From positions 133,825 to 197,824 of IMG/VR virus record IMGVR_UViG_3300045988_163643: DNA of 64,000 bases, one strand, 5' to 3'. Position numbers and translations under genes: made by a program. Each line of letters opens with the position of its first letter. Position 1 is the stretch's first letter. The stretch is from a virus. Shown one piece after another: positions 1 through 49,194 of this stretch. Below the pieces are notes generated by a model. That model saw nothing but the letters and a program-made list of their open reading frames with translations, was not told the origin of the DNA and ran no database searches.

Positions 1-159
1 TTCAACGACTAGATAGGAATATCGTACACTCAAGCGAGTGGAAGTGGGTTGCCCTTAACAGGTAATGCTGAAGGTGAAGAAATAGTCTACTCTCATGTGA
101 AAGCATGAGCAGTTCATAAGAGAACGTACATAATGTAGCGAATTATGTAGAATATAAGG
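1..159 (+). mobile_element. group I intron, 3' portion (5' part lies upstream of the window)
   Basis: Shares core motifs with the other introns here: CAACGACTA at 3-11, GAAATAGTCTAC around 78-90, P9 hairpin CTCTCATGTGAAAGCATGAGCAG, and a terminal hairpin with GTAGCGA loop and tail AGAATATAAGG. Positions 39-115 are identical to 49052-49128. Confidence 0.8.
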
Positions 160-418
160 TTATACTGCAGAAGGTACTTTTAGAACTACTTCATTAGCTG
201 GAGACCAATACAAAAAAATAAAATTCTATAACTTAAAAGCACAAGTTTCAGCTGACTTAACTTTATCTGCTTCTGATGTTTCTGAATTCTCATTAAAATT
301 AGATATAATGGCAGATGATACTGGTAAAATATTAGATATAGAAAACACTGCTGGTGGTATATCTGCTGGATTTAATGAACCAGAAGTTGTTTCTATAAAA
401 ACTAAAGCTGATAAATAA
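160..418 (+). CDS. last exon of probable major tail (tube) protein (C-terminal ~85 aa)
   Basis: Open frame 161-415 plus TAA 416-418 (no ATG, so absent from the ORF track), reading YTAEGTFRTTSLAGDQYKKIKFYNLKAQ...VVSIKTKADK. It starts directly after the intron end. The function is inferred only from its position upstream of the chaperone-like ORFs and tape measure. Confidence 0.5.
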
Positions 419-439
419 TTAAATATATACTTGATAAAT

Positions 440-475
440 GGTGAGAGATAACTATTATCTCTTACCATTTTTTTT
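440..475 (+). terminator. rho-independent terminator
   Basis: Stem GGTGAGAGATA / TATCTCTTACC followed by a run of T (468-475). Confidence 0.75.
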
Positions 476-485
476 ATGCCCTAAT

Positions 486-521
486 AGTCTTATTTTAGAT
501 ATGTAAAATAAAAAGAAGGAG
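486..521 (+). promoter_or_regulatory. conserved late-gene leader or candidate promoter element
   Basis: AGTCTTATTTTAGATATGTAAAATAAAAAGAAGGAG lies directly before ATG 522. Near-identical elements occur at 19127-19162 and 37918-37958. Confidence 0.35.
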
Positions 522-1076
522 ATGATTTTTGTGGATAGATTAGCATTCACAAGCGATTTAATCGCAGACGATATAAGATGTAAATTAAAAGTTATAAGTA
601 AAGAGGATGGTGAACCTAGCTATATAACTGTATGGAATATAAAAGGAGAAAGAAGACAAGAAGTATTAAATGAATTAAATACTATTATGGAATTACATAA
701 TGAAGATGATGAAAAATTATTTAATATGTTTTATACTAACCTTATCTTAGAATTTACTGATTTAGTAATGGATACTGATGATGTATTATTTTTATTAAAT
801 GATAGCACATTAGCTGGAAAAATGTTAATGCAAGAATTTAGTGATATGATATATGAAATACAATATGAAATAGCTATGGATAACTTACAACAAACTAGAA
901 ATTTAGCTATGGCTTTAATAACTCAAACTGCAATAGATGAAATGAATTATGCACAAGAAAGAGTAGACCGTGCTAAAGATAAAAGAGATAAAAATATTTT
1001 TATAGATTTAGAAAAAGAAAAAAGAGAAAAACATCTTGCCTGTAAAAGAAAAGGAAATAAAAAATATAAAAAATAG
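522..1076 (+). CDS. hypothetical protein, possible tail assembly chaperone (positional)
   Basis: 184-aa ORF with a strong GGAG RBS and a lysine-rich C-terminus. It lies between the tail protein and tape measure genes. Confidence 0.45.
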   Translation: MIFVDRLAFTSDLIADDIRCKLKVISKEDGEPSYITVWNIKGERRQEVLNELNTIMELHNEDDEKLFNMFYTNLILEFTDLVMDTDDVLFLLNDSTLAGKMLMQEFSDMIYEIQYEIAMDNLQQTRNLAMALITQTAIDEMNYAQERVDRAKDKRDKNIFIDLEKEKREKHLACKRKGNKKYKK

Positions 1077-1079
1077 GAT

Positions 1080-1539: not shown

Positions 1540-2148
1540 GTGAACGAGATTGAAAAAATATATAAATTATATGTTCACATTTCCCCTAGTGGTAAAAGAT
1601 ATTATGGAATAACTTGTACTAAAGTTGAACAAAGATGGGGTTGTGATGGACAAAGATATAATAGACAACCATATTTTTGGAATGCTATACAAAAATATGG
1701 TTGGGATAATTTTGTTCATGAAGTTTTATTTGATGATTTAACAAAACATGAAGCTTGTATATTAGAACAATGTTATATTGCATTATATGATACTACTAAT
1801 AGAGAAAAGGGATATAACTGTTCTATAGGAGGAATAGAACATTCACATACTAAAGAAACAAAAGAAAAAATTAAAAAATCTATAAGTGGTGAAAATAATG
1901 GTATGTATGGTAAACATCATTCAGATGGAGCTAAAGAAAAAATGAGACAAAAAAAGAAAGATATATATTTAGGAAATAAAAATCCTAATGCTAAAAAAAT
2001 AAGATGTATTGAATTAAACAAAGTATTTGATACTGTTAAAGATGCTTTAGAATTTATTAATAGAACACGTAGTTCTCTATGTGATGCGATGAAACGTAAT
2101 GGTAAATGTGGTGGCTATCATTGGGAATACGTGGAGGAGGTGAATTAA
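1540..2148 (+). CDS. free-standing GIY-YIG homing endonuclease (I-TevI/Seg-like)
   Basis: N-terminal KLYVHISPSGKRYYGIT...R...E...N pattern, NUMOD3-like H..ETKEKI / HSDGAKEKM repeats, and a C-terminal GGYHWEY DNA-binding-type tail. Confidence 0.85.
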   Translation: MNEIEKIYKLYVHISPSGKRYYGITCTKVEQRWGCDGQRYNRQPYFWNAIQKYGWDNFVHEVLFDDLTKHEACILEQCYIALYDTTNREKGYNCSIGGIEHSHTKETKEKIKKSISGENNGMYGKHHSDGAKEKMRQKKKDIYLGNKNPNAKKIRCIELNKVFDTVKDALEFINRTRSSLCDAMKRNGKCGGYHWEYVEEVN

Positions 2149-2149: not shown

Positions 2150-5100
2150 TTGAGTCAATTTGATATAAGAATTGGTACGCAACTAGATACTAGTAAAGCG
2201 TTACAAGAATTAATGGAATTTGTCAAAAAATATGACAATAAAGAAAAGATAAATATAGACATAGGTCAATCAAAAGGTGCTAATAATGTAAAGAATACAA
2301 CTAAAGCTATGAAAGAAATGCAAAAAATAGCTAAGGCATTAGGAAATACAAAGATTGACGTAGGTAGTAACATAGGTAAAGCAACCAATGAAGCTACTAA
2401 ATCATTAGAAAATAGCATAGACAAACAAGCAAAATCTATTGCTAAAATAACTAGTGGTGCACAAAGAGATTTAACTAAAGATGCTCAAAAGGGTATTGAA
2501 AATAGTCTTAAAGGTATTACTACAGAAATGAAAAATACCCAAAGAAATGTTGACAAGATGATTGGTACTCTTGAACGAGCTAAGAAGGTTGAGTTAATAG
2601 ACCAAAAAGGTTTAGATGAAGGATTAGCTAAATTAAAAGATATGAAAGCTAACCTTAGAATAGACAATGTTGGTGATGTAGAGAAAAAATTAGGCGAAGT
2701 AGCAAATGACTATAAAAGATTAATGTCAGATGCAACTAAAGAAGCATTTAATAATGTTGAAGTATCAGGATTATTAGAGGATTTAAAAGTTGTTAGAGAA
2801 GCTATGTCAGCTAAAAACATGGACTTAACTGGTGTTGATACTTTAATTTCTAAAGCTAAACAACTTACTTCTTTAAGTGTTGACCAAATGTTAAAACAAT
2901 ACAAAGAGTTAAGACAAGTATTTAGTAAAGAATTAAAGATACCATTAGGTTTAAATGGTGTAATGAATGCTGAAACTGCAATTAAAAATGTTTTAGATTA
3001 TAAAAACAAATTAACTGCTAAAATTTCAGTTGAAACAAATTCAGAGCAAGTAGATATTTTAAGAGATAAAATAGTAAGATGTGATGAAGTTGTTAAACAA
3101 CTTGAAGGAGACTTAAATTTAGTAGGTAGAAGTACAGCATTAAACTTAATGGAACAATCCAATGAAAGAGAATTAGATACATTAAGTGCTAAGTTAAAGA
3201 GATGTAAGAATGATTATGCTAACTTAGAAAAAGAAAGACAAAGATTAAATAGAGATAGTAGATACATTGGAACAGAAGATTTAAGTAATATAGAAAAACA
3301 ATCATTAGCTATAAAGAAAGCTCTTGATAGTTTAAATGTTGGAAATTTAAATACAGATAAAATAAATAAAGTTACTGGCGATATAAATAATTTAAGAAAA
3401 ACAATAGAATTAACTGGTAATTCAGCTAAAAAATTAGATATAGAAGCGACAGTTAAAGTAGATATGAAAACTGCTCAAGACCAATTAAATGGTATGTATT
3501 CTGCTTTAATAAAATCTAATAAATCCACTGTAATGGTTAAAAAATATAAAGATGAATTAGAAGGATTGTTTGATTTATCTAAGGCTAATCCAGGTATAGC
3601 ATTAGACAAAATAAGTGGTTTTATAGAAAAAGTAAATAAAGAAGCAAGTAATAAAGGTTTAGGCAAAATAACTGGTGGATTAGACCAATATAAACAATAT
3701 TTAAAAGATTATGAAACATTAGTTAAAAAAGCTAGTGGCACTACAGATATTGGTTTTGCAAAAGCTTACAAATCAGAAGTTACACAAATAGAAAAGGCAT
3801 TAGACCAATTAGAAAGTGGATTTAACCAAACTCAAAAATCTATGGCTAAAGCCTTGAGATTAGAATCACTTAATAAGAACACTCAAGAGTTTACTAATCA
3901 AGTTGAAAAATCTATTAAGAAAACTCAAGAATATAAAAAAGAGTTACAAACTCTTAATAAAGATGTAAATTTTGATGGTCTTACTTCTAAATTAGGTCAA
4001 AAAGTCAAAGAAGAATTTGACGGAATGATTAATAAAACTAATCAATTAGAAAAAAGACTTAATAATATGTTGTCATCTGGTAATGTAAATACTACTGAAT
4101 TATCTAAATTAAAATCAGAACTTGAAAGTACTTTTTCTGGACTTTCTAAACTTAAAGATACTAGTATAAAAATTAAAACTGATGAAACTATATCAGGACT
4201 TAATAAAATCAAAAAAGATTTAGAATCATTAGGTCAAGATACTAGTCAAATAGAAAGAGTTATTAATGCATTAAAAGAACTTAAAGCTAATTTCAATGGT
4301 GGTACAGCAGGTTATAAAGAATTAGCTAATGGAATAAAGGCTATTGGAAAAGATAATAACTTAGAAAAACTAAATAGTTCTTTAGAAAAATCAACTAAAA
4401 AATTTAATAACTTAGCTAAAGTTGTCGGAGAACTAAAAGTTAAAAATATAGGTAATATAGACCAAGGTGCTTTTCAATCTTTAGATAGTCAAGTTGCACG
4501 AATACAATCTCATATAGAAGGTTTAAATAAAAACGACATATCTTTAATAGATGTTAAAAAAGTTGAAGCAGAAGTAAATGAATTAAGCAACTGTGTAGAA
4601 AAAATGAGTAGTGAATTGACTCAGTATAGCAGATACTTAGAAGAATATAAAAGATTATCTAGTCAAGCAGGTAAAACAAACGATGTTAATTTAGCTACAA
4701 AATATCAACAAGAAGCAGAAGGTATAAAAGGTGTATTAACTCAATTAGAGAGTGAATTTACACAAGCTCAAAAATCTATTGCTCAAGGATTAAAAACCGA
4801 TGCTTTCTCTAATGCTAATGAAAAAATGTCTTCTGAAATTAATAAAACAATTAATACAGTTGATGGTCTTAAAGAAAAACTTAATACATTAGATAAAGAT
4901 GTACATTTTGAAAATATGACATCTGAATTAGGTAAAGAATTAAATAGTCAATTTAATACTTTAGCTAACAAAGGTGAAGAATTAAAAGATAAATTAAGTA
5001 AAATATTAGCATCTGATAATGTAGATATTTCTGCTTTAAGTAAAATTAAAAAAGAAATAAATGAGTTTGCAAGTGAAGTTAATAATTTAAAAAATTCTGC

Positions 5101-7265
5101 AATGGATAATGTTATTAGAGAATCTTTTGATAACATTAAAATACCTAATTTAAATAAACAACTAGAAGCAGTTAAAGATTTAATGTCACTTAAAAATATG
5201 GATACTAGTGGTATAGATGCCTTAATAGAAAGAACTAAAAAACTATCAAGCTTAAGCGTAGATAAAATAGGTCAAGAATTTAAGGAAATACAAAATGCAC
5301 TTGGTAAAGAAATTAATTTACGTTTAGGTACTAGTGGTATTAAAGATATAGAATCTGCATTAAAAGTCATATTACAATATAGAAATGAATTAAAAAATAA
5401 AATAGCAATTGAAACAGATTCATCAAAAGTAAAAGACCTTAATAGTCAATTAGAAAAAACTGAAAGCATAATAGAAAAACTTAAAGGTCAAACTAGTGGT
5501 GGACTTGGTGCAAGTTTAATTAGTGATGCCAACAATAATAACTTAAAACAATTAGAAGATACTGCTAATGGATTAAAGAAAACATTCTCTAATTTGGAAA
5601 GTGAAGTAAATAAATTAAACAACGAAGCATTGAATAAGGTTGATATAAGTCAATTAAGAGAAATGAATGAAGTTGTTAATGATGTAAAGAGAAATTTGGC
5701 ATCTATCGGAGAAGGAAATGTTAATGTTGATTCAATAAATAAAACAGCACAAGACATAGAAAAATTAAAGAGATTAATAGAAAATACTAAAAAAACAATT
5801 AGTGATATGAAATTAGAAGTTTCATTTAATATTAAATCAAATGAAGCAGAACAATATTTAGCAGGTTTTGAATCAGCTTTATTGAGGTTAGGTAAATCAA
5901 CTAGTGGAATAAATGCTTTAAAGAGTGAATTTGAAAGTATAAAAAATTCAGCTAATGGAAATTTAAGTAGTGCCATAAAAATGATTGATGACTTTATTAA
6001 TAAATTGAAACAAATGGGTAGCAAACAAGGTTTAGGTAATATAAGTGGTACTATGTCTCAGTACAAACAATATACTAGAGAATTACAACAAGCCATGAGT
6101 GGGGCGTTAAAATCTAGTGGTTCTGATACGGCTAAAGGATTCGAACAACAAGCCGAACGAATAAAAAGTGCCATAAAACGTTTAGTTTCAAGTTTCAAAG
6201 AATCACAAAGAGAATCAGCTAATGCTTTTAATGGTAGTACATTTAGTAATTTCTCTTCTAAATATGAAGCTGAAATAAACAAAGTTGAAAGAAGTATAAA
6301 TAAATTTAAATCATCAATGCAAAACTTAGATAAAGCTGTAAACTTCAAAGGTTTTCAAACTGATTTAGGAAGAGGTTTATCTGAACAATTTGACCAAATA
6401 ATGGCAAAAGCTGAACAATTAAGAGATAGACTAAAAAGTGCATTATCATCTGGTACTTTTGATATAAGTGAAATAAATAAAATAAAAGATGAATTAAAAC
6501 AAGTTGAGCAAGAGGCAGATTCATTAAAACAAAAATCTATAGTATTAAAATGTGCTGAAAGTATAACAGAATTAGAAAGACTTAGCAGTAAGATAAAAGA
6601 TATAGGTGGAGACACATCAAAAATAGAAGAATTAAAAAATAAATTTGTTACACTTGGTACAGGTATAAGAGAAGGTACTACTGGAATAGATGATGCAATT
6701 TCTAAAATGAAATCTTTATCTTCGGAAGCACAAAGAACTGCTAGTTCTTTTGAATCAACTGCTGGTAAAATAGGTTCTTTTGGTTCTAAAATACAAGGTT
6801 TCTTTAGTTCTATAAAGAATTCATTTAGTACTTTTACTATTGGTAATTTAATGGCTGATGGTATAAGCCGAGCTGTTTATGAAATAAAAGATACTATAAC
6901 AGGTTTAGATGAAGCAATGTCTGATTTTAAAAGAGTTGCTCCTGATAACTTTAGTTTAAATACATCTAATTTACAAAGTGTTGCTAACGAAGCAAGAGAA
7001 ATAGGTATTAGTGTTGGACAATCAGTAGAAGATGTTATTACTGGAATGAGTACTGCATTACAAGCAGGTGCAGGCGATATTAAAACTGCTTCTGAAATAG
7101 CAAAAAGTTCTGCAATATTCCAAAATGTTACAGATATGTCAGCAAAAAGTGCTTCAAAAGCTGTTTCTTCAATGATAAATCAATATTATGATATGGATTC
7201 AGCATTAAATCAAGTTGACCACGGTGTAGGTAAATCCGTAAAAGGATACAACAACTTAACAGAGG
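2150..7265 (+). CDS. tail tape measure protein, exon 1 of 5
   Basis: TTG start behind GGAGGTG. About 1,705 codons of coiled-coil-type sequence run into the TMP core (FKRVAPDNF...GISVGQSVEDVITGMSTALQAG). The ORF-track tail VTYSLLY* is intron read-through. Junction +/-2 nt. Confidence 0.85.
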
Positions 7266-7479
7266 TAACATACAGCCTCCTATATTAAGTAATTAGTATA
7301 GAAAATTTCTTTAATTGCTGGAAACTCCTAAAGCCTTACAAACTACAACGTAGAGTTAAAACTCAAGCGTGAATGTGGCGAAAGCAGAAAAAATTGTAAG
7401 GATTACCCAAGGTTAAATCCTAAAGGTGAATGAATGGACAATCAGCAGGTAAGATTCTAAATTAAATTATTTTAAATAT

Positions 7480-7508
7480 TTGACTTTTAATAATAAAATG
7501 AGTATAAT
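7480..7508 (+). promoter_or_regulatory. sigma-70-type promoter inside the intron, driving the endonuclease gene
   Basis: TTGACT (7480-7485), 17-nt spacer, TATAAT (7503-7508), then GAGGTG RBS and ATG 7532. Confidence 0.7.
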
Positions 7509-7531
7509 ATAAGTAAAGTGAGGTGATTAAA

Positions 7532-8428: not shown

Positions 8429-8607
8429 TTTAACAAGAATAAACTTCAACGACTAGAACGCAAGTTCGTAGGGTGTAAGCGATTGACACTCGAAATGGGA
8501 AACAATCAAAAACGGGTTGATGATATAGTCTGCTCTCATGGGAAACCATGAGCAGTTTTCATATAAAGAAAACGGATTAAGTGTAGCGAACTTAATTGAA
8601 CAAGAGG

Positions 8608-8754
8608 CAATGGACTTGGTCAATTATGCAGGCAATAATTTTGCGATTTCATCTGATGGTGTAACAGAAGCATTACAACGTGGTGGTTCTGTATTATCTA
8701 ACTATGGAGTAGATTTAAAAGATTCTATCGCAATGATAACTGGGGCAAATGAGT
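8608..8754 (+). CDS. tail tape measure protein, exon 2 of 5
   Basis: AMDLVNYAGNNFAISSDGVTEALQRGGSVLSNYGVDLKDSIAMITGANE is the hallmark TP901-type TMP core. The ORF-track N-terminus MGNHEQ...IEQE (8538-8607) is intron sequence. Confidence 0.8.
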
Positions 8755-16925: not shown

Positions 16926-17034
16926 TGTTTACAGATATCGATGGGAATATAAAAACTCTTCAAACAGCATTAATGGATTTTGCTAATGAAAGTTCTGATT
17001 ATTTTGGAGTTATGGGTAATGTTGCCCTAGTCGT
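16926..17034 (+). CDS. tail tape measure protein, exon 4 of 5 (109-nt micro-exon)
   Basis: This is the only open frame: (V)FTDIDGNIKTLQTALMDFANESSDYFGVMGNVALV. The other two frames hit stops. It is bounded by introns on both sides. Confidence 0.7.
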
Positions 17035-17227: not shown

Positions 17228-17256
17228 TTGACTTTTAATAATAAAATGAGTATAAT
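17228..17256 (+). promoter_or_regulatory. sigma-70-type promoter inside the intron
   Basis: TTGACT-N17-TATAAT, in a block nearly identical to 7455-7531. Confidence 0.7.
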
Positions 17257-42122: not shown

Positions 42123-42446
42123 TAAATATTAGTCCCTATGTAAAGTGATTTATATAGCAAACCTCTTGAATTGCTGGGAAACCCTTAGAGCCTTAATACC
42201 ACAATATAAGAGAAATCATTATATGAAGGTTTGAAAAGTTTAAGGATTGGGTAATCAGCAGGTAAGATTCTAAGTTGTATAAACAATATGAATAAACTTC
42301 AACGAACAAGTATCCTAGTAGTCTAGGTAGTGGGAGGGGTCTCGAAAGAGATTGTGATATGCTCTACTCTCATGTGAAAGCATGAGCAGTTTTCTTTGAG
42401 TAAGAAAACGGGTAGAATAGTAACGATATTCTATTGAATATAAAGG
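42123..42446 (+). mobile_element. group I intron (324 nt, no ORF)
   Basis: P1 GGAT/GTCC with U.G at 42122 and a 3-bp extension, TTGAATTGCTGGGAAACCCTTAGAGCC core, and tail TGAATATAAAGG. The junction is in frame (TTD-QQG). The P7 strands diverge (CAACGAACA / GATATGCTC). Confidence 0.8.
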
Positions 42447-42570
42447 CAACAAGGTTTCACTCAACCTGAGTATGAAGCATGGAGAACTTGTGTTAAAGCT
42501 ATGCAAACTAGAACTGATTTTTATAATAATTATGGCTTACCTGTATTTGATTTTCATTTGAACACTGGAG
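42447..42570 (+). CDS. metallophosphoesterase, exon 2 of 4 (124 nt)
   Basis: Only open frame: QQGFTQPEYEAWRTCVKAMQTRTDFYNNYGLPVFDFHLNTG(D). Confidence 0.75.
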
Positions 42571-42935
42571 TAACAAATTAAGCTCCCTATGTAAATAAAT
42601 TGCATAGCAAACCCTTTGAATTGCTTGTAATCCCTAAAGTCAACTAAACTACAACGTGATTGGAAACGATGAGCGTGAATGTGGCGAAAGCAGAAAAAAT
42701 TAGTTGAATTGTATATGGTTAAATCCTAAGTACTATAAACAATGGGTGTCTAGCAGGTAAGATTCTAAGTTACTATAAGTAATATGAATAAACTTCAACG
42801 ACTATATATACTAGTAGTCTAGTTAGTGGAGGGCATCTCTTTATGGGATGATGATATAGTCTACTCTCATATGAAAGTATGAGCAGTTCATAAGAGAACG
42901 GTATAAAGTATAACGAACTTTATATGAATATTAGG
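42571..42935 (+). mobile_element. group I intron (365 nt, no ORF)
   Basis: P1 GGAGT/GCTCC, TTGAATTGCTTGTAATCCCTAAAG core, CAACGACTA ... GATATAGTCTAC, and tail TGAATATTAGG. Junction +/-1 nt. Confidence 0.8.
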
Positions 42936-43033
42936 ATATTTCACAAAATGCATCTAATTTATTTGAATGGTTGTATTACACTGATTATGGTGAAGAATTT
43001 TGTAGAAACATTCCTCACTTAACTGCATGTGGT
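42936..43033 (+). CDS. metallophosphoesterase, exon 3 of 4 (98 nt)
   Basis: (D)ISQNASNLFEWLYYTDYGEEFCRNIPHLTACG. Together with exon 2 this gives GDIS (motif II) and ends at the G of motif III. Confidence 0.75.
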
Positions 43034-43347
43034 AAATGTTAGCCACCTTTACATAGTGATATGTAATGAAAAACTCATTGAATTGCTGGAAAGTCCTAAC
43101 GTAAAGACGAGGATAATCAGCAGGGAAGTCCCTTTAAAATGGGAAACCTTCAACGACTATCCCTTAGATGTTGAAATACATCAATAGGAGTACGGCTCAA
43201 GTGATTGGAGTGGGTGAAAATCCCTTAAATGGAAGTGGTGAGCATCTCAATAGAGATGAAGATATAGTCTACTCTCATGTGAAAGCATGAGCAGTTTTCA
43301 TGTAAAGAAAACGGATTAAGTGTAGCGAACTTAATTGAATATAAAGG
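43034..43347 (+). mobile_element. group I intron (314 nt, no ORF)
   Basis: P1 TGGT/GCCA with U.G at 43033, TTGAATTGCTGGAAAGTCCTAACG core, CAACGACTATCCC ... GATATAGTCTAC, and tail TGAATATAAAGG. The junction is in frame (ACG-NNDLV). Confidence 0.85.
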
Positions 43348-44361
43348 AATAATGACCTCGTTGATAAAAAATATGGTTTTGCTTATGAACATTATGCTAC
43401 ATATGAAAATGTACCTAAATTAAATGATTATCATAAAGAAGTTCAAGCAACAACAGATTTTCCTATGGTATCTACATATTCTTTTGATTTAGGATTTACT
43501 CATTTTATATGTATAAATTCAAATCAAGAACAAATGTATAATGATTATGGTATAAATCAAACAGAATTTTTATTAAAACAAGCTTACTTCCTAGATAGAG
43601 ATTTATGGAAGGTTAGTAAAAGAACTACAAAACCTAAATGGGTAATTGTATATGCACATTTAAGTCCTTTTACTGTAACAAGAGCAAAAAGATTACAACA
43701 TTGGATACCTATACTTGAAAAATATAATGTAGATTTATTCTTATGTGGTCATAACCATACATATTCAAGAAGTATACCAATAAAATGTGGATATGAAAAA
43801 TCTGCATATGCAGATATGATAAATGAAAAAAATTATAATACCTATGTACCAAAAAGTGGTAAAAATTACACTTTAGTAAATGAAACAAAATTAAGTGGTA
43901 GTGAGATAACTAGAAGTGCTAACATATCTCAAGGTGTTTATTATGTGATGTTCCAAGCAGGTGGTGCTAAACAAAGTGGTAAAGAAAAAGCTATTGATTT
44001 AAGTACTATGACATTCTTAAATAGCACTGGTGGAACAGTAACAAGTGGTACTGAATATACTAAACATTTCCATAGTGGAACAAATAGACCTTGGTGGTAT
44101 GAATATACTAGCTCTTTACCAGTACAACCTTGTTTTGCAACTTTAGATATTTCACCAACATCAATAAAAATGAGTATGAATTATGTTAAAGAAGTAGAAG
44201 CTATAGATAAAGAAACTGGCGTAATGACTGTAGATAAATACGACCCAAATAAACATACAATTGTTAACTTTGATAATTTAACAATAAATTATTCAGATAG
44301 AAATCCAGCTTATAGAACTGGAGTATCTGCTCCTTATTATGACGAGAATAAAAATTATTAA
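43348..44361 (+). CDS. metallophosphoesterase, exon 4 of 4
   Basis: NNDLVDKKYG...WVIVYAHLSPF...DLFLCGHNHTYSRS (PAP motifs III-V). The four exons total 2,619 nt, which is 872 codons plus a stop. The ORF track begins only at internal M 43465. Confidence 0.8.
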   Translation, partial: NNDLVDKKYGFAYEHYATYENVPKLNDYHKEVQATTDFPMVSTYSFDLGFTHFICINSNQEQMYNDYGINQTEFLLKQAYFLDRDLWKVSKRTTKPKWVIVYAHLSPFTVTRAKRLQHWIPILEKYNVDLFLCGHNHTYSRSIPIKCGYEKSAYADMINEKNYNTYVPKSGKNYTLVNETKLSGSEITRSANISQGVYYVMFQAGGAKQSGKEKAIDLSTMTFLNSTGGTVTSGTEYTKHFHSGTNRPWWYEYTSSLPVQPCFATLDISPTSIKMSMNYVKEVEAIDKETGVMTVDKYDPNKHTIVNFDNLTINYSDRNPAYRTGVSAPYYDENKNY

Positions 44362-44374: not shown

Positions 44375-47087
44375 ATGTCTATTAAAAGATGTATTGTTAA
44401 AGACGGAAAAGAACAATGGATAGAAGTTGCTGGAGGAAGTAGCACTATAAATACAGGTGAAGCGATAAACGTTAGTATAAAAGATAATAACGATTTATTT
44501 GAAAGTACAAACGTCGAAGGAGCCTTAAGTGAGTTAGGAACTGATTTGCAAAATGTTAGCAATAAATTAACAAATCACGTAAACAATTCTTCTATACATG
44601 GTGGAGGTGGAGGTGGTGGTAGTATGCCTACCATCACTTCTGATTTTACTATAAATAAATCAGATGGTATAAGCGAAATAGAAATACCAATATTTTTTAA
44701 TTCACCTAACTTAGGTGAAGGTTTAGCTTATATATTAGTTAGTAATGTTGAAGTAGGTACACAAACTGTTCAACAAGGTAACAATACGATTATAGTTCCT
44801 CCTTTGGGAGCTGGTAAAAATATAATTATATCAATATATGTAAAAGATAGAGCAGGTTTAATATCTAACCAAATAAACTGGACAGTAACAAGTGGTGGTA
44901 TAACATTAACAATGCTTACTGACACAAGTGCAGATTATGGTGTTACAAGTAGAATAGTTTTATCATATACAATATCTTCTATGACTGGTGAAGATATTAA
45001 AGTTTATTTTGATGTAGATGGCACAACATATGAAACAAAAGGTACTAATGGATATAACACTTATGAAATTACAGGATTAGATATAGGTGTACATACTATA
45101 ACTTATTGGGCGACATCAGCAGAATATGAAACAAAACATAGTACATTTACACTAATAGTAGTAAGTAAAGACCAAATAATATTATCAACTCAATTTGATT
45201 CAACAATTGAATATGAAAGTGGTATACCAATTAGTATACCATATAGATTATCAGTAGATAGAGATGATGATTTTATTGTAAATTTATATATAAATAATGT
45301 TTTAGATAAAACCATAGTAACTAGACCAACTTCATTGTATTGGACTATATCATCATTAGACCCTGGTGATTATACTTTAAAAATAGAAGCAAAAAATGAA
45401 TCTTTAGGAATGAATAATCATATAGAATTTGAATGTAAAGTTATTCAAAGTGAATATACTAGAATACAACCAGTAATAGATAGTTCTTTAATAGCTTGGT
45501 TTGATGCAACAAATAGAACTAACAATGATAGCGATAGGGATGTTTGGACTGATAAAATAAAAGGCAATAAAGGTTATCTTTATAATTTTAACTATGGTTC
45601 TAATGGATGGTTAAAACAAAGTGGTAAGGAAATTAGTGAACTTGTTATGAATGGTACTGCTTATGTTGAAATAGACATGACACCTTTTGCTGATAACTTT
45701 AAAAATGGTGGTGTAATCGAATTAGTATTTAAAACTAGAGATGTTGGTAATAGTAATGCTAGAGTTTTAGATATAACAGATACACTATCACCATATAAAG
45801 GTGTTTATATTGATACAAGAGAAGCATATTTATCTACTTCATCACAATCTATAAATGGTTCTATAGGTGAAGATGAATATATACAAGTGTTATATAATAT
45901 AGATAGAATTAACAAATATTGTCATATAGTTGTTAATGGAGTAATAATAAAATCTTGTAAATTAGCTGATAGTGGTAGTGGTACTTCTGCTATATTAGAA
46001 TCATTAGCTCATTCTAAAAAGATTTATTTAAATTCCCAAAAAGGAACTAATAATTTTGGCTCTTGTGAAATAGCACATTTGAGAATATATGATAGAAACT
46101 TTACTTTTGATGAAATATTGCAAAACTTTTTATCAAATTACGATGATTTAAAAGTACAAAAAAGTAAATCGGATTTTAATAATCCATTAAAGAATATAAT
46201 GCCTATCATGAATATAACTGCTGACCAAAAACGTTTAGATGATATGACAGATACAAATAGAGTTGAAGTTGCTATGACATATACATCTCCTAATGCAGAT
46301 TTATATGGACAAACTTTAACTAACGCTAGTAACTGTTTAATGTATTGGCAAGGTACATCTTCTATAGCATATAATATTAAAAACTTTAATATATTACTTA
46401 GAGATGAAAATAGACAACCAATAATGTATAGTCCTTTTAAAAATTGTATACCACAAGATTTATTTTGTCTAAAAGCAAACTTAATGGAATCTACTAATGC
46501 TCATAACGTAGGTATAGCTGAATATGTTCATGATTACTTATATACAACTTTGAATCCTGCACAAAAAATAGATAGTAGAGCTAGTAGAACAGTACAAGGT
46601 TTCCCTATATTACTTTATATAAATGGTGAATTACAAGGTGTATATGACTTCAACTTAGATAGATATTCAACAAAAGCGTTTGGATATGAATTAGATGAAT
46701 ATAAAGATACTTGTAGAGCATATGAAATTTCAGCAAATACTAATAAAACTGCTGGTGCATTTATTCCTTGGACTAAGGAAACTGGTGTAGATGAATGGAC
46801 ATGGTATAAAAATGACTTTGTAGGTATATATCCTGAACGTATACAAAATTCAATTAATGATGATTTCTCTGCATTAAAAACATTAATATCATTTGTGCAT
46901 GATTCTACTGATGAAGTTTTTACTACAAATTTCGCTACATATTTTGATAAAGAATCAGTAATAAGATATTACATTTTAGTTCTAGTACTTGGTTTAGTGG
47001 ATAGTTTAGGAAAAAATATGAAGCTAGTAACATTTGATGGTGTTAAATGGGAAATACAAGTATATGATGCTGATACGGCTTTTGGGT
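44375..47087 (+). CDS. giant fibre-like protein with LamG-like and CotH-like domains, exon 1 of 3
   Basis: N-terminal VEGALSELG and a poly-Gly stretch, Ig-like repeats, and a LamG-like block (...AHLRIYDRNFTFDEI). CotH-like segments VQGFPILLYINGELQGVYDFNLDR and KNMKLVTFDGVKWEIQVYDADTAFG. The 30-aa ORF tail after 47087 is intron read-through. Confidence 0.7.
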
Positions 47088-47165
47088 TAATAATAGCTCA
47101 AATAAAACCTTTTCTGATATACGGCGAAACTCCTGGAGAGGACAACGCCTTCCAACTATTATTTA

Positions 47166-47194
47166 TTGACAAATTATAAAAATATATGTATAAT
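47166..47194 (+). promoter_or_regulatory. sigma-70-type promoter inside the intron
   Basis: TTGACA (47166-47171), 17-nt spacer, TATAAT (47189-47194), then AGGAGG RBS 47218-47223. Confidence 0.7.
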
Positions 47195-47230
47195 ATAAAT
47201 ATAAAGAGAATATATATAGGAGGTGATTAT

Positions 47231-48088
47231 GTGTGTAAGAAAGAGAATAGTTTTGCACAATGGTTTATAAATGAATTTGGATTAGAAAAATTTAACACTG
47301 TCATAAATCATGAAAAAAATAAATCATTAGGCATAGATATTTGGAACGTATCAAAGAGAAGTGGTTGTAAAATTTGGTTTAAATGTGAAAATAAAGATTA
47401 TCACGAATATCAACTTACAGCCGATAAATATTTTATTGGTAATAGATGTAAATATTGTGGCAGAACAAAATATGTTCATCCAAGAGATTCGTTAGGTCAA
47501 TATATAATTGATAACTTTGGAGAAGATTTTTTAAATAGAATATGGTCAACAAAAAATAAAAAATCGCCTTTTGAATATACTATTGGAACTGAGAAGAAAG
47601 TTTGGTTTAATTGTATCAATGGTATTCATGAACCAAAATTAAGACAAATAAAAAATTCTGTTGCTAACGACTTTAAATGCCCATTTTGTTTAAAAAATTG
47701 CCATATTTCAAAATTAGAAAAGAAAGTGTTTTTATATTTAAAAAGCATTTTTAAAAACATAAATAGAGAAAGCAATTGTAATTTAATACCCAAAAATCCT
47801 AAAACTAATAAAATAATGCCTTATGATAATGAGATAGTGGACATAAAATTAATAATAGAAGTACATGGAAAACAGCATTATGAATTATCAGTAGATACAA
47901 GTGCATGGTTACATGGATTATCACCAGAAGAATATCTTCATAAAAGAAAATTGTATGATAGGTATAAAAGAATGTACGCAAAGTCCAATGGTTATTATTA
48001 TTTAGAAATACCTTATTGGGCTGATGATTTAGAGGAAACTTGGAAAATTATGATTGATGATAAAATAAAAGAAATATTAAGTCAATAA
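47231..48088 (+). CDS. intron-encoded homing endonuclease: Zn-ribbon modules plus Vsr/DUF559-like nuclease (divergent member)
   Basis: WFKCENKDYHEYQ...NRCKYCG and VWFNCINGIHEP...FKCPFCL modules, then ...PYDNEIVDIKLIIEVHGKQHYE...YLEIPYW. The GTG 47231 start is preferred because the track ATG at 47186 overlaps the -10 box. Confidence 0.7.
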   Translation: MCKKENSFAQWFINEFGLEKFNTVINHEKNKSLGIDIWNVSKRSGCKIWFKCENKDYHEYQLTADKYFIGNRCKYCGRTKYVHPRDSLGQYIIDNFGEDFLNRIWSTKNKKSPFEYTIGTEKKVWFNCINGIHEPKLRQIKNSVANDFKCPFCLKNCHISKLEKKVFLYLKSIFKNINRESNCNLIPKNPKTNKIMPYDNEIVDIKLIIEVHGKQHYELSVDTSAWLHGLSPEEYLHKRKLYDRYKRMYAKSNGYYYLEIPYWADDLEETWKIMIDDKIKEILSQ

Positions 48089-48280
48089 ATAATAGGGGAA
48101 CAACGACTGAGCGAAAAGGACTTACTATAAAGTAAGTATGCAACAGTCTGAACTCACACTATAACTCAAAATATTAAGAAATGTGAGAAGGAAAGTCATC
48201 AGTAACCAGACTGATTAAAGAAGAACTTTCCTCGCCAACTTAGGTTGGTCGGTAGCCTTTATGGTGAAAGTAACAGAATG

Positions 48281-48732
48281 TAGATAATACAGGAGCATTG
48301 AAATATGATGTAGATATAGAAGTTGACCCTGAACATTTCAATACTGCCGATTCAGTATTATGGACTAGAATTAGAGAATTATTCTATAACGATATAGTTG
48401 CTGAATATAATAATATGAGAAATCAAAACTTAACACCTGAAAAAATATATGAAAGTGTATTTACAAATCAAATAGAAAAAATACCTGAAAGTCAATATAA
48501 TCTTAGTACACAAAAGAAATATCTTGATACAGGTGAAAATATTATGATGTCTAATGGTAACAGATATTATAATTTGAAACGTTGGATAAAAGAAAGATTT
48601 ATATATTGTGATACTTTATTTGATTACACTCCTACAACTGCTAAGTATGTAACTGTACGTTCAGGAGTAGAAGGTAAGGCTTATTTGGATATAGAAACTT
48701 ATTATCCTATGTATATAACTATAGAATGGAGG
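48281..48732 (+). CDS. CotH-like giant protein, exon 2 of 3
   Basis: (L)DNTGALKYDVDIEVDPEHFNTADSVLWTRIRELFYNDIVAEYNNMRN...YITIEWR. Both ends are uncertain by a few nt. The ORF-track tail KQYSSYIEKSV* is probably intron sequence. Confidence 0.6.
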
Positions 48733-49194
48733 AAACAATATTCCTCGTACATAGAGAAATCTGTGTAGGACACAACTTTAATTGCAGGTAATGGGTAAAG
48801 CTCTACACCACAATATATCTGAAAAGAATATATGAAGGTACGAAAGTAGAAACAACGTAGAGATTCTCATACGGTTAAATCCTAAGTGAGAAGTGATTAG
48901 ATTCACACAATCCCTGTTCATGCAAGGAAGTTCCTAAGTGATAATCTTGTATCATATGGAAAACCTTCAACGACTATCCTGGAAAGATAAGTGAAATCCT
49001 TATCAATAGGAGTACGGCTCAAGCGATTGGAGTGGGTGAAAATCCCTTAAATGGAAGTGGGTTGCCCTTAACAGGTAATGCTGAAGGTGAAGAAATAGTC
49101 TACTCTCATGTGAAAGCATGAGCAGTTCTTTATTAAATTTTTAACATTTAATAAAGAACGATATGTATGTAGCGAATACATATGAATACAAAGG
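48733..49194 (+). mobile_element. group I intron (~462 nt, no ORF)
   Basis: TTAATTGCAGGTAATGGGTAAAGC core (same subtype as 17035-18783), CAACGACTATCC ... GAAATAGTCTAC, P9 hairpin, and tail TGAATACAAAGG with terminal G 49194. The 3' exon is in frame from 49195. The 5' junction is ambiguous (48732-48741). Confidence 0.75.

What the first reader, a model, noticed from the sequence alone, without database searches (positions are those of the whole stretch)
1..49194. Ten group I introns packed into four late structural genes
Ten elements share the same ribozyme core: TTGAATTGCTGG/TTAATTGCAGG...CCTAAAG, AATCAGCAGG, CAACGACTA...GATATAGTC(T), a CTCTCATGTGAAAGCATGAG hairpin, and a terminal hairpin with G/ATAACGA-type loop plus a UGAAnAUAArG tail.

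They lie at 1-159, 7266-8607, 8755-9090, 16579-16925, 17035-18783, 42123-42446, 42571-42935, 43034-43347, 47088-48280 and 48733-49194.

From memory, the 3' halves closely resemble the T4 td intron (AACGACUAUCCC..., GAUAUAGUCUG..., UAACGACCUUAUCUGAACAUAAUG). Removing them rejoins otherwise fragmentary ORFs in frame and restores conserved protein motifs.

Introns are separated by micro-exons of only 98-147 nt. This density, and the location in tail, tape-measure and fibre genes rather than nucleotide-metabolism genes, goes well beyond the classical T4, SPO1 or Twort cases.
Basis: partly seen in the sequence, partly recalled or inferred. Interest (0 to 1): 0.88.

Follow-up and report, generated by a model that had tools for sequence, protein, structure and literature searches.

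The report
Mobile group I introns crowding phage tail genes
Ten self-splicing, mobile RNA introns interrupt four late (tail-region) genes of an uncultured large phage; this is a very dense example of a known thing, and about half of them appear to splice after a G instead of the near-universal U.

Summary
All ten elements are group I introns. Removing them gives uninterrupted ORFs:
- a 4383-aa tape measure protein;
- an 872-aa metallophosphoesterase;
- a 2142-aa CotH/LRR protein.
Full Pfam domains and invariant catalytic motifs are restored.

- Nine introns form one td/lysK/AR9-like family. The ninth (47088-48280) is a different group I class that RF00028 does not detect; covariation supports it.
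- Intron 5 starts at 17017, not 17035.
- The first element is only the 3' end of an intron.

Relatives about 93% identical (IMG/VR contigs) lack five of the ten introns precisely. They carry at least six more at other sites, so the introns are actively mobile. Three introns carry phrog_559 (VSR-like) homing endonuclease genes, each with its own perfect sigma-70 promoter.

The novelty claim is overstated:
- Twort orf142, a tail tube gene, has three introns.
- AR9 gp188 is joined from six pieces with an 11-nt micro-exon.
- Jug phages average 18.5 introns per genome.

The unexpected part is the 5' splice site. In introns 2, 4, 5, 7 and 10 the last exon base is G paired to C, and the U·G wobble is absent or displaced to +1. 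Intron-less alleles, invariant motifs and dN/dS all support this. It needs RNA confirmation.

The parts
1..159 (+). I1: 3' end (J6/7-P7 to omega G) of a group I intron in the major tail (tube-position) protein gene. The 5' part lies outside the window.
   Evidence: It shares the P7, P7', P9, P9.1 and P9.2 motifs, and its BLAST matches to I10 (48% of its length) are 100% identical. The homologue in L009 is a complete intron with an endonuclease ORF.
160..418 (+). Last exon of the major tail / virion structural protein gene.
   Evidence: Only one frame is open. The spliced L009 orthologue matches phrog_2729 'virion structural protein' at E = 2.4e-18.
1540..2148 (+). Free-standing GIY-YIG homing endonuclease gene between the tail chaperone ORFs and the tape measure gene. 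It is not an intron.
   Evidence: It matches phrog_314 at E = 9e-29. It is a 612-nt insertion absent from all five relatives that cover the site.
2150..7265 (+). Tape measure protein (TMP) exon 1.
   Evidence: It lies in frame with the other TMP exons; the spliced TMP is 4383 aa.
7266..8607 (+). I2: group I intron (1342 nt) with an endonuclease gene in the P6 loop. P1 is GAGG|U / GCCUC.
   Evidence: It is absent precisely in all five relatives that cover the site; for example L009 reads NNLTE|AMDLV. Its core is homologous to I4 and I7.
7480..7508 (+). Perfect sigma-70 promoter (TTGACT-17-TATAAT) for the I2 endonuclease gene.
   Evidence: It is one of only three such sites in the 64-kb window, and all three precede an intron endonuclease ORF.
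7532..8428 (+). I2 homing endonuclease ORF: treble-clef zinc fingers plus a VSR-like nuclease.
   Evidence: It matches phrog_559 at E = 1.4e-72 and Pfam DUF4379 and CapR.
8608..8754 (+). TMP micro-exon 2 (147 nt).
   Evidence: It forms part of the PhageMin_Tail domain, which is complete only after splicing.
8755..9090 (+). I3: group I intron (336 nt, no ORF). P1 is GAGU|U / GGCUC, with the canonical U·G.
   Evidence: It is absent precisely in three relatives, which read ANE|SLQ. Helices covary.
9091..16578 (+). TMP exon 3.
   Evidence: In frame with the other exons.
16579..16925 (+). I4: group I intron (347 nt, no ORF). P1 is GGAG|U / GCUCC, so the base at -1 is G.
   Evidence: It is present in all relatives. 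Its homologue in L016 scores 91.8 bits with RF00028. A 41%-identical intron-less TMP (L020) aligns without a gap across ALDTG|VFTDIDG.
16926..17016 (+). TMP micro-exon 4 (91 nt, corrected).
17017..18783 (+). I5: group I intron (1767 nt) with an endonuclease gene in P6.
   Evidence: It is absent in five relatives, which read GVMG|DSLKKE. The same intron family occupies a different TMP site (window position 16361) in the relatives, and its ORF-free form there scores 54 bits with RF00028.
17228..17256 (+). Perfect sigma-70 promoter for the I5 endonuclease gene.
17279..18607 (+). I5 homing endonuclease ORF.
   Evidence: It matches phrog_559 at E = 1.8e-89.
18784..19093 (+). TMP exon 5.
   Evidence: dN/dS is 0.11-0.20 in the predicted frame only.
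40740..42122 (+). Metallophosphoesterase gene (G3) exon 1.
   Evidence: Pfam hits to Pur_ac_phosph_N, Metallophos and LTD.
42123..42446 (+). I6: group I intron (324 nt). P1 is GGAU|U / AGUCC, with the canonical U·G. It splits motif TD|QQG.
   Evidence: RF00028 scores it 62.5 bits. It is absent precisely in three relatives.
42447..42570 (+). G3 micro-exon 2 (124 nt).
   Evidence: dN/dS is 0.03 in the predicted frame.
42571..42935 (+). I7: group I intron (365 nt). P1 is GGAG|U / GCUCC, so the base at -1 is G. It splits motif TG|D.
   Evidence: RF00028 scores it 65.1 bits. The invariant NTGD motif is restored only by this junction.
42936..43033 (+). G3 micro-exon 3 (98 nt).
43034..43347 (+). I8: group I intron (314 nt). 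P1 is GUGGU|A / GCCAC, with the canonical U·G. It splits motif CG|NND.
   Evidence: RF00028 scores it 100.5 bits, E = 7.7e-25. Junction confirmed.
43348..44361 (+). G3 exon 4.
   Evidence: dN/dS is 0.13-0.20 in the predicted frame. Relatives carry a further intron at position 43750, inside the GHNH motif.
44375..47087 (+). CotH/LRR protein gene (G4) exon 1.
   Evidence: On its own this exon covers only positions 5-216 of the 322-position CotH profile.
47088..48280 (+). I9: group I intron of a different class (1193 nt) with an endonuclease gene in P6. P1 is UUGGGU|U / AGCUCAA, with the canonical U·G.
   Evidence: The manual structure P1-P3-P4-P5-P6-P7-P3'-P8-P7'-P9-P9.x is 98.2% paired, with 14 pairs changed on both sides against 0-1 in the slid controls. 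Relatives carry a 272-nt ORF-free form. RF00028 gives no hit.
47166..47194 (+). Perfect sigma-70 promoter (TTGACA-17-TATAAT) for the I9 endonuclease gene.
47231..48088 (+). I9 homing endonuclease ORF, with a GTG start after AGGAGGTGA.
   Evidence: It matches phrog_559 at E = 7.4e-17 and Pfam DUF4379.
48281..48732 (+). G4 exon 2 (452 nt).
   Evidence: Joining it to exon 1 extends the CotH match to positions 5-318 of 322.
48733..49194 (+). I10: group I intron (462 nt, no ORF). P1 is GAGG|AA / UUCCUC, so the base at -1 is G and there is no U·G pair at all.
   Evidence: It is absent precisely in two relatives, which read EWR|NQADG. Its 3' half resembles I8 and I1.
49195..52458 (+). G4 exon 3 (LRR region).
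   Evidence: dN/dS is 0.19-0.25 in the predicted frame only.

Best explanation
The window is the tail-and-lysis region of an uncultured, low-GC (28%) large siphovirus-like phage. Its nearest cultured relatives are the C. difficile phiCD211-like phages. A population of mobile group I introns has colonised its late genes.

The ten introns interrupt four genes:
- the major tail protein gene (at least 1 intron);
- the tape measure gene (4 introns);
- a metallophosphoesterase gene (3 introns);
- a CotH/LRR gene (2 introns).

Nine belong to one recombining family, related to the T4 td, Staphylococcus phage K lysK and AR9/PBS1 introns. One (I9) is a separate class.

How it works, with shown and inferred steps marked:
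- Inferred: each gene is transcribed as one precursor.
- Shown by sequence: each intron pairs the last 3-6 exon bases with its own guide sequence (P1) and ends in G.
- Inferred: each intron folds its P3-P9 core and removes itself by the two guanosine-dependent transesterifications. That excision is precise follows from the exon frames, intron-less alleles and dN/dS.
- Inferred: three introns (I2, I5, I9) carry phrog_559 zinc-finger/VSR-like homing endonuclease genes in the P6 loop, each with its own consensus promoter and Shine-Dalgarno site. These are taken to cut intron-less alleles during co-infection, so that repair copies the intron and its flanking exon sequence.
- Inferred: ORF-free introns spread by co-conversion with close neighbours, by endonucleases acting in trans, or by occasional reverse splicing into similar short targets. 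I4 and I7 both follow ACTGGAG in different genes.
- Shown by comparing relatives: endonuclease genes are gained and lost within the introns.
For: Ribozyme identity:
- RF00028 hits I6, I7 and I8. In relatives it hits the I4 homologue at 91.8 bits and the I5-family intron at 54 bits.
- The nine family members are mutually homologous.
- In the nine, P8, P9, P9.1 and P9.2 are 92-100% paired, with 25 pair columns changed on both sides.
- The I9 structure has 14 compensatory pairs, including pairs in P3 and P7.
- The terminal base is G in 10 of 10 window introns, and in every further intron of the relatives whose 3' junction was read.
- A P1 hairpin containing the junction is the minimum-free-energy fold at all nine 5' ends.

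Precise removal:
- Three uninterrupted ORFs result.
- The metallophosphoesterase aligns to phage G gp352 and the crAss002 phosphatase, restoring the motifs.
- The TMP aligns without a gap to the intron-less homologue L020.
- After splicing, CotH covers 5-318/322 at 67.9 bits, against 5-216 at 52.4 bits for exon 1 alone. PhageMin_Tail covers 2-201/201 at 76.7 bits, against 2-69 at 21.5 bits.
- dN/dS is 0.03-0.25 in the predicted frame of downstream exons and about 1-2 in the other frames.

Mobility:
- I2, I3, I5, I6 and I10 are exactly absent in some relatives.
- Relatives carry extra introns at window positions ~8625, 9126, 9350, 16237, 16361 and 43750, and extra ORF insertions inside I4, I7, I8 and I9.
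- Exon codons next to occupied sites differ synonymously from empty alleles in ways that build P1.

Endonucleases. Promoters.

Family spread: at least 119 IMG/VR stretches and 281 phage records.
Against: - No RNA data: splicing itself was not observed.
- RF00028 does not reach threshold for I2, I3, I4, I5, I9 or I10 in the window.
- Five of the nine complete introns lack the U·G wobble at the inferred 5' splice site, which is a near-universal feature of group I introns (established knowledge: Michel & Westhof comparative rule). In these five, self-splicing efficiency, or a need for a helper protein, is open.
- I6 in the window has an A·C mismatch in P7.
- Endonuclease activity and target sites are inferred from family membership only.
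Confidence: 0.88

Rival explanations
1. The five introns with G at -1 (I2, I4, I5, I7, I10) splice canonically, after the U that pairs with the guide-sequence G, or they do not splice accurately at all. The mRNA is then frame-shifted and the proteins are truncated. On this view these insertions are damaging, or they act as regulatory 'off' alleles, rather than being neutral passengers.
For: - In I2, I4, I5 and I7 a U·G pair exists one base inside the intron.
- The homologous lysK, AR9 and AR1086-1 introns cleave right after such a U.
- I2 and I5 occur only in the window lineage, so selection on their downstream exons could not be tested.
Against: - Canonical cleavage combined with omega G gives a stop codon within 0-33 codons for I2, I4, I5 and I7 (read from the sequence). 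The tape measure protein would lose two thirds of its length.
- I4 and I7 are fixed in all six lineages, and the exons downstream of them are under purifying selection in exactly the frame that requires the G(-1) junction.
- The invariant metal-ligand Asp of NTG|D is restored only by that junction.
- I10 has no U·G pair at all.
Confidence: 0.07
2. The elements are decayed intron or endonuclease remnants that no longer splice. The flanking ORF pieces are pseudogene fragments or are translated separately.
For: Seven of the ten fall below the RF00028 threshold. Gene callers would report fragmented ORFs.
Against: - Every helix that was checked keeps its pairing through compensatory changes.
- The micro-exons of 91-147 nt are conserved at dN/dS 0.03.
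- Pfam domains and catalytic motifs continue across the junctions.
- Intron-less alleles are collinear with the spliced product.
- RF00028 also misses clear homologues elsewhere, so a miss says little.
Confidence: 0.03
3. The intervening sequences are another kind of element: inteins, group II introns, or Clostridioides-type IStrons (a group I intron fused to an IS200/605 element).
For: The host range fits IStrons, since the nearest relatives are Clostridia phages. The elements also interrupt conserved motifs, as inteins do.
Against: - Reading on from the upstream exon meets a stop codon within 1-9 codons of the 5' junction in every intron, so they cannot be inteins (and read from the sequence).
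- No Hint or intein domain and no transposase was found; the ORFs are phrog_559 endonucleases.
- No group II hit appears in either Rfam scan.
- The 3' ends are ribozyme helices P9-P9.2, not IS ends.
Confidence: 0.01

Closest known systems
Staphylococcus phage K lysK intron and T4 td intron (phage 'IA2-type' group I introns)
   Same: They share the core motifs (UUCAACGACUA, GAUAUAGUC, the P9 GAAA hairpin, the P9.1 hairpin GUUC-AUAAGA-GAAC, the P9.2 loop GUAGCGA/UAACGA) and the same P1 style (GGGU…GCCC). BLAST identity to the lysK, SEP1, PBS1 and AR9 introns is 70-80% over half the intron.
   Different: lysK splices after the U of the U·G pair (HTG|DG). Half of the window's introns place that U inside the intron. 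The host genes here are tail-module genes rather than lysin or nucleotide-metabolism genes.
Bacillus jumbo phage AR9/PBS1 introns (gp204 virion structural protein, 3 pieces; gp188 virion RNAP beta subunit, 6 pieces)
   Same: They are homologous intron cores (80.8-85.5% identity in the megablast matches). A single gene for a virion protein carries multiple introns, with micro-exons as short as 11 nt and with endonuclease ORFs.
   Different: All four AR9 5' junctions examined here are canonical U·G. The endonucleases are HNH/AP2, not phrog_559. The phage is a myovirus of Bacillus.
Staphylococcus phage Twort orf142 (three group I introns, exon skipping)
   Same: It has three closely related introns in one late gene, which was later identified as the tail tube protein (PMC11878797, discussion).
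   Different: There are fewer introns per region. From my own knowledge, not checked here, the Twort ribozymes use the canonical U·G.
Bastillevirinae terminase introns carrying phrog_559 (VSR-fold) endonucleases
   Same: The intron-encoded endonuclease family is the same (phrog_559; PMC11878797, Table 2). Some genes hold 2-3 introns. RF00028 often detects only part of an intron.
   Different: The host genes there are terminase, DNA polymerase and ribonucleotide reductase. That paper explicitly notes that introns were confined to DNA-metabolism and packaging genes.
Intron-rich huge gut phages (Jug phages, crAss-like phages)
   Same: They carry many group I introns per genome (18.5 on average; 2513 in 136 genomes) that fragment essential genes, and splicing of 37 of 76 predicted introns was supported by metatranscriptome reads (PMC12880540).
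   Different: Those introns are about 206 nt long and are spread over 360-402 kb. Here there are 10 in 49 kb, concentrated in the tail module, and up to 10 distinct sites in one tape measure gene across the lineage.
Cluster J mycobacteriophage capsid and tail gene introns; C. difficile phage AR1086-1
   Same: Group I introns in virion structural genes have been shown to splice (PMC3706429). AR1086-1 carries an unannotated homologue (80% identity) in its tape measure gene, near the same domain.
   Different: Those cases have a single intron per gene.

Membership tests
Group I intron (Rfam RF00028) | Catalytic core P3-P9 scores above the curated covariance-model threshold (50 bits). | tested here: met
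   I6 scores 62.5, I7 65.1 and I8 100.5 bits. In relatives, the I4 homologue scores 91.8 bits and the ORF-free I5-family intron 54 bits.
Group I intron (Rfam RF00028) | The same threshold test applied to I2, I3, I4, I5, I9 and I10 in the window itself. | tested here: inconclusive
   No hit at the gathering score or at E <= 1, and none for ORF-free I9 at E <= 10. The model also misses the clear homologue in phage AR1086-1, so a miss reflects low sensitivity (large P5/P6 inserts, endonuclease ORFs). Apart from I9, membership rests on homology to the introns that were hit.
Group I intron (Rfam RF00028) | P3/P7 pseudoknot, with P4-P6 and P8 nested inside, maintained by compensatory changes. | tested here: met
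   I9: 57 pairs, 98.2% paired, 14 pairs changed on both sides (3 in P3, 1 in P7), against 0-1 in the slid controls. Main family: the peripheral helices P8, P9, P9.1 and P9.2 covary, and its core pairing is carried by the Rfam alignments.
Group I intron (Rfam RF00028) | The intron ends in G (omega G). | tested here: met
   Holds for 10 of 10 window introns, with junctions fixed by frame or by intron-less alleles, and for every further intron of the relatives whose 3' junction was read.
Group I intron (Rfam RF00028) | P1 helix between the end of the 5' exon and an internal guide sequence. | tested here: met
   P1 is the minimum-free-energy fold at all nine 5' ends. The guide sequence is complementary to a different exon sequence at each site. 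Intron-bearing alleles carry synonymous exon changes that build P1.
Group I intron (Rfam RF00028) | The last exon base is U, in a U·G wobble with the guide sequence. | tested here: not met
   Met for I3, I6, I8 and I9. Not met for I2, I4, I5, I7 and I10, where -1 is G paired with C. In the relatives it is also not met at R16361 (G), the I1 homologue (G), major-tail intron A (A), R16237 (C-G) and R43750 (U-A). I still file them as group I introns because the core, omega G and P1 are present; this feature is reported as a deviation.
Group I intron (Rfam RF00028) | Guanosine-dependent self-splicing. | not testable with these tools
   This needs in vitro transcription with GTP, or cDNA from infected cells.
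Subgroup IA2 (T4 td-like phage introns) | Extra helices P7.1/P7.2 between P7 and P3', plus P9.1/P9.2, and sequence kinship with td/lysK. | tested here: inconclusive
   P9.1 and P9.2 are present in all nine. There is a long insert between P7 and P3' in I1, I8 and I10 and a short hairpin in I3, I4, I6 and I7. BLAST kinship to the lysK and AR9 introns is shown. No subgroup-specific models were available. I9 does not fit this subgroup.
Homing endonuclease family phrog_559 (zinc-finger + VSR-like nuclease) | Profile match over the nuclease and DNA-binding regions, and location inside an intron loop. | tested here: met
   E-values are 1.4e-72, 1.8e-89 and 7.4e-17, and Pfam DUF4379 and CapR also match. 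All three ORFs sit in the P6 loop. Cleavage activity was not tested. Sequence search found no relative with a solved structure.
Intein | In-frame insertion with Hint splicing motifs and no stop codons. | tested here: not met
   Reading on from the upstream exon meets a stop codon within 1-9 codons of every 5' junction (and the sequence), and there are no Hint domains.
Group II intron / IStron | Domain V/VI RNA with a reverse transcriptase, or a group I intron fused to an IS200/605 transposase. | tested here: not met
   No group II family appears in either Rfam scan. The ORFs are endonucleases, not reverse transcriptase or TnpA/TnpB.

The most novel reading that the evidence does not exclude
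In this phage lineage, a family of otherwise ordinary td/lysK-like group I ribozymes chooses its 5' splice site without the U·G wobble.

- In at least eight insertion sites the last exon base is a purine: G at seven sites (five of them in this window) and A at one. It sits in a Watson-Crick pair with the guide sequence.
- At most of these sites the wobble U is the first base of the intron.
- On this reading the mobile unit carries its own U, and cleavage occurs one phosphate upstream of the canonical position.

If so, these RNAs define the splice site by the register of P1/P10, or with help from a protein, rather than by wobble recognition. That would loosen the target rule that is thought to limit where group I introns can settle, and it may explain how one family could occupy so many sites in a few genes.
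Probability: 0.55. Interest if true: 0.72.

Novelty: new member of a known kind. Interest (0 to 1): 0.52.

Why it matters
This is one of the densest local accumulations of mobile group I introns seen in a phage. The window has ten in 49 kb. Across a set of about 93%-identical genomes there are at least 17 distinct insertion sites, ten of them in one tape measure gene.

Occupied and empty alleles exist side by side. That makes this a natural system for studying three things:
- intron and endonuclease gain and loss;
- co-conversion of flanking exon sequence;
- intron-mediated competition between co-infecting phages (compare PMC11620839).

On the practical side, it shows that gene callers and RF00028 badly under-report such introns. 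Seven of ten are missed here, and an unannotated one sits in the tape measure gene of a cultured C. difficile phage. As a result, tail genes of large Firmicutes phages are mis-annotated as fragments.

If the inferred purine at -1 is confirmed at RNA level, it bears on how group I ribozymes recognise their 5' splice site. It also bears on how freely such introns, or engineered trans-splicing and circularising ribozymes, can be retargeted.

Tried and rejected
1. RF00028 with permissive thresholds, run on the whole window, on 8700-17200, and on the 272-nt ORF-free I9 homologue. It added nothing beyond the three gathering-score hits, so I turned to homology, covariation and intron-less alleles instead.

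2. Alternative junctions for the G(-1) introns. None works (reasoned):
- An upstream U (for example ACU|GGAG) deletes the invariant Gly of NTGD.
- Moving both junctions +1 makes omega a non-G, turns the invariant Asp into Val (I7) and creates a UAA stop (R16361).
- Other G bases in the 3' tail give stop codons.

3. I rejected it because five intron-less alleles lack the six extra residues, and because the same intron at another site has an in-frame UAA upstream of that helix.

4. An automatic splice-site finder (open frame plus best P1), meant to survey the -1 base in more than 100 family members from IMG/VR. It failed on my own known junctions by picking P2 or chance hairpins, so I dropped it.

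5. Literature searches for natural group I introns without U at -1 found nothing relevant. This is absence of evidence only.

6. A sequence search of the I2 endonuclease against PDB chains gave no meaningful match.

7. A possible link between J8/7 sequence variants and the non-canonical sites: in the sequences, I2, I4 and I7 read AUGAUAUAGUC and I1, I5 and I10 read AAGAAAUAGUC, against the usual AAGAUAUAGUC. The link is broken by I6, whose relatives have the I4-type J8/7 but a canonical junction.

8. Megablast of 30 kb of the window against cultured phages matched only the intron cores. The phage itself is not in that collection.

Full report
**1. What is in the sequence**

The window is AT-rich (GC about 0.28 throughout). 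It is coded almost entirely on the + strand.

Megablast against 50,697 cultured phage records matches nothing except short pieces of the ten elements. Those pieces hit introns of the Bacillus jumbo phages PBS1, AR9 and Goe21, and a few other phages.

Gene content, in order:
- the end of a virion structural / major tail protein gene;
- two chaperone-position ORFs;
- a very long tape measure gene;
- Dit;
- a minor tail protein, then several very large tail proteins;
- a metallophosphoesterase (G3);
- a CotH/LRR protein (G4);
- a tail-fibre-like protein;
- further downstream, an amidase-type endolysin.

The minor tail protein is 37-41% identical to that of the C. difficile phiCD211-like siphophages. 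The source is therefore probably a large siphovirus of a low-GC Firmicute.

**2. The ten elements**

RF00028 at its gathering score finds three introns:

| Intron | Coordinates | Bits |
|---|---|---|
| I6 | 42113-42386 | 62.5 |
| I7 | 42539-42883 | 65.1 |
| I8 | 43023-43291 | 100.5 (E = 7.7e-25) |

More permissive scans add none. This is a sensitivity problem, for two reasons:
- In relatives the I4 homologue scores 91.8 bits and the ORF-free form of the I5-type intron scores 54 bits.
- The model gives no hit at all on a clear homologue in C. difficile phage AR1086-1.

I1-I8 and I10 are related to each other by BLAST in a mosaic way. For example, I4 matches I7 over 89% of its length at 80% identity, I2 matches I7 over 92% at 68%, and I1's matches to I10 are 100% identical.

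Across the nine copies, the helices P8, P9, P9.1 and P9.2 stay 92-100% paired. Twenty-five pair columns change on both sides.

**3. I9 is a different intron**

I9 (47088-48280) has no similarity to the other nine. It gets no RF00028 hit, even on its 272-nt endonuclease-free homologue.

Five variants from the window and its relatives were aligned. They support a group I topology: P1, P3, P4, P5, P6, P7, P3', P8, P7', P9 and two further 3' hairpins.
- 98.2% of cells are paired.
- 14 pairs are changed on both sides, including three in P3 and one in P7.
- Controls with the 3' partner slid by 1-3 columns show 0-1 such pairs.

The endonuclease ORF sits in P6.

**4. Splicing restores the genes**

With the corrected I5 boundary, the tape measure protein is 4383 aa.

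Metallophosphoesterase (G3). The three junctions fall exactly at the metal-binding motifs: TD|QQG, TG|DI and CG|NNDL. The spliced protein aligns to intron-less Bacillus phage G gp352 and to the crAss002 phosphatase with these residues invariant.

Pfam domains before and after splicing:

| Domain | Exon 1 alone | After splicing |
|---|---|---|
| CotH | profile 5-216 of 322, 52.4 bits | 5-318 of 322, 67.9 bits |
| PhageMin_Tail (TMP core) | 2-69 of 201, 21.5 bits (below threshold) | 2-201 of 201, 76.7 bits |

A 41%-identical intron-less tape measure homologue (L020) aligns without a gap across the I4 and I5 junctions.

**5. Relatives show mobility directly**

IMG/VR holds several contigs of 147-204 kb that are about 93% identical to the window.

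Window introns that are exactly absent in some relatives:

| Intron | Status in relatives |
|---|---|
| I2 | absent in all five that cover the site |
| I3 | absent in three |
| I5 | absent in five |
| I6 | absent in three |
| I10 | absent in two |

Differences in the other direction:
- Relatives carry introns at window positions ~8625, 9126, 9350, 16237, 16361 and 43750. The last one lies inside the GHNH motif of G3.
- Relatives carry extra ORF insertions inside I4, I7, I8 and I9.
- Some relatives carry an ORF-free I9.

The tape measure gene therefore has ten known insertion sites in this lineage. Six of them lie within about 250 codons of its core domain.

Intron-bearing alleles differ from empty ones by synonymous changes next to the junction. 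Those changes extend P1: GAG G against GAA G, GAG U against GAA U, ACG GAU against ACU GAC, and UGG AGG against UGG CGU.

I4 and I7 follow the same heptamer, ACTGGAG, in two different genes. The I5-type intron occupies two different GGG sites. This suggests occasional movement to new sites.

**6. Endonucleases**

I2, I5 and I9 each carry an ORF of phrog_559 (E = 1.4e-72, 1.8e-89 and 7.4e-17). All three match the treble-clef zinc-finger domain DUF4379, and the I2 and I5 ORFs also match CapR. This family was recently described, with a VSR fold, in Bastillevirinae terminase introns (PMC11878797).

The only three perfect TTGAC[AT]-N17-TATAAT sites in the whole window, on either strand, lie just upstream of these three ORFs. 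Each is followed by a GAGGTGA ribosome-binding site.

A fourth endonuclease gene (1540-2148) is of the GIY-YIG type (phrog_314). It is free-standing and forms a 612-nt insertion absent from all relatives that cover the site.

**7.

- I5 starts at 17017, not 17035. The helix AGUCGU/GCGACU that looked like P1 is P2. The true P1 is GGG|U…GCCC. Two results show this: the intron-less alleles read GVMG|DSLKKE, and the same intron at site 16361 in relatives has an in-frame UAA between the two candidate positions.
- I9 is not of the same family as the other nine.
- I1 is a fragment, cut off by the start of the window.

**8. The unexplained feature: the 5' splice site**

I fixed each junction from frame, from intron-less alleles or from invariant residues, and required a terminal G. 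That requirement can be met at every site read, in the window and in the relatives.

The last exon base and its guide-sequence partner are then:

| Pair at -1 | Sites |
|---|---|
| U·G (canonical) | I3, I6, I8, I9, and three sites in relatives |
| G-C | I2, I4, I5, I7, I10, R16361, and the I1 homologue |
| A-U | major-tail intron A in L009 |
| C-G | R16237 |
| U-A | R43750 |

In seven of the ten non-canonical cases the first intron base is a U that pairs with the 5' G of the guide sequence. A wobble is present, but it lies one position inside the intron.

The guide base that pairs with +1 can usually also pair with the first base of exon 2 (P10). So the helix geometry is otherwise normal.

Canonical cleavage after that U would add one base and give early stop codons. 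Shifting both junctions by one is excluded, for the reasons listed under 'tried and rejected'.

Selection supports the non-canonical junctions. Among lineages that all carry I4, I7 and I10, the downstream exons have dN/dS of 0.03-0.25 in exactly the frame required, and about 1-2 in the other two frames.

As a control, the same reasoning applied to the lysK intron, to four AR9 introns and to the AR1086-1 intron returns the canonical U·G each time.

I found no paper describing such exceptions. I have no RNA data. I therefore report this as a well-supported inference about the mature mRNA, with the mechanism unknown.

**9. Comparison with what is known**

Introns in phage structural genes, several introns per gene, and tiny exons are all documented:
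- Twort orf142 is a tail tube gene with three introns (PMC11878797).
- AR9 gp204 is joined from three pieces. AR9 gp188 is joined from six pieces and has an 11-nt micro-exon.
- Cluster J mycobacteriophages splice introns in capsid and tail genes (PMC3706429).
- Jug phages average 18.5 introns per genome, and crAss-like phages also carry multiple introns (PMC12880540).

The intron family itself is widespread. It occurs in at least 119 IMG/VR stretches and 281 cultured phage records.

What is unusual here is threefold:
- the local density (13.4% of 49 kb);
- the concentration in a tape measure gene and two tail-module enzymes;
- the apparent relaxation of the U(-1) rule.

**10. Verdict**

The finding is real and correctly interpreted in its essentials. 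I class it as a new member of a known kind, with one feature (purine at -1) that would be of real interest to ribozyme specialists if RNA data confirm it.

Noticed in passing
window 1540-2148: A free-standing GIY-YIG homing endonuclease gene (phrog_314, E = 9e-29) sits between the tail chaperone ORFs and the tape measure gene. It is a 612-nt insertion absent from all five relatives that cover the site.
   Followed up: partly
window 2150-19093 (spliced): The tape measure protein is 4383 aa. It contains long internal repeats (for example the EVNGQAITNIDVNGKDQL and NCQDNATSKIN units) and a Lys/Ser/Thr-rich low-complexity stretch. At about 1.5 Å per residue (a rule of thumb, not tested here) this would imply a tail of roughly 650 nm.
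   Followed up: no
window 42300-42365 (I6): P7 of I6 differs from its homologues in relatives. GACUA/UAGUC has become GAACA/UGCUC, which gives one compensatory C-G pair and one A·C mismatch. P8 is also replaced by a different but fully paired hairpin. The RF00028 score drops from about 92-95 bits in relatives to 62.5 bits.
   Followed up: partly
window positions ~8625, 9126, 9350, 16237, 16361, 43750 (empty here); L004, L008, L009, L010, L012, L014-L019: Relatives carry introns at six sites that are empty in the window. At least two further intron families are involved, for example one starting …CCUGGUUGUCGAGUAAUCGGCUUC. The site at 43750 lies in the GHNH motif of the metallophosphoesterase, so all four known G3 intron sites abut catalytic motifs.
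   Followed up: partly
window 16572-16578 and 42564-42570: I4 and I7 are about 80% identical introns inserted after the same heptamer, ACTGGAG, in two unrelated genes. The I5-type intron sits after GGG at two different tape measure sites (window 17016, and 16361 in relatives). This hints at movement to new sites guided by the internal guide sequence.
   Followed up: no
L149 (C. difficile phage AR1086-1, OR397124.1) 9001-9320: An unannotated group I intron, 80% identical to I8 over the aligned pieces (56% of I8), splits what look like two halves of the tape measure gene (CDS 7138-9021 and 9322-15534). RF00028 gives no hit on this locus.
   Followed up: partly
L016 11050-11740 and L017 10486-11177 (window 19170-19177): Two relatives have a 697-nt insertion right at the start codon of the Dit gene, and it duplicates ATGGCAAG. 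It looks like an inserted small gene rather than an intron.
   Followed up: no
window 40740-52458 versus L002 (crAss002 gp19-gp20): The gene pair 'phosphatase followed by a very large LRR-containing protein' is also adjacent in Bacteroides phage crAss002 (gp19 phosphatase, gp20 transferase/LRR) and in Bacillus phage G (gp352-gp353). It may be a conserved virion-associated module.
   Followed up: no
window 8608-8754: The 147-nt micro-exon is a multiple of three, and both of its junctions are in phase 1. Twort- or SIOphi-style exon skipping would therefore stay in frame. Skipping both G3 micro-exons together (124 + 98 = 222 nt) would also stay in frame.
   Followed up: no
window 53060-53098: A weak match to the Staphylococcus small RNA TEG147 (29.3 bits against a 56.1-bit threshold, E = 0.12). 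It is probably chance.
   Followed up: no
L024 9130-9936 (window 48215-48218): One relative has a second insertion of about 805 nt in the 3' peripheral helices of I9, in addition to the P6 endonuclease ORF. That makes the intron 2003 nt long.
   Followed up: no
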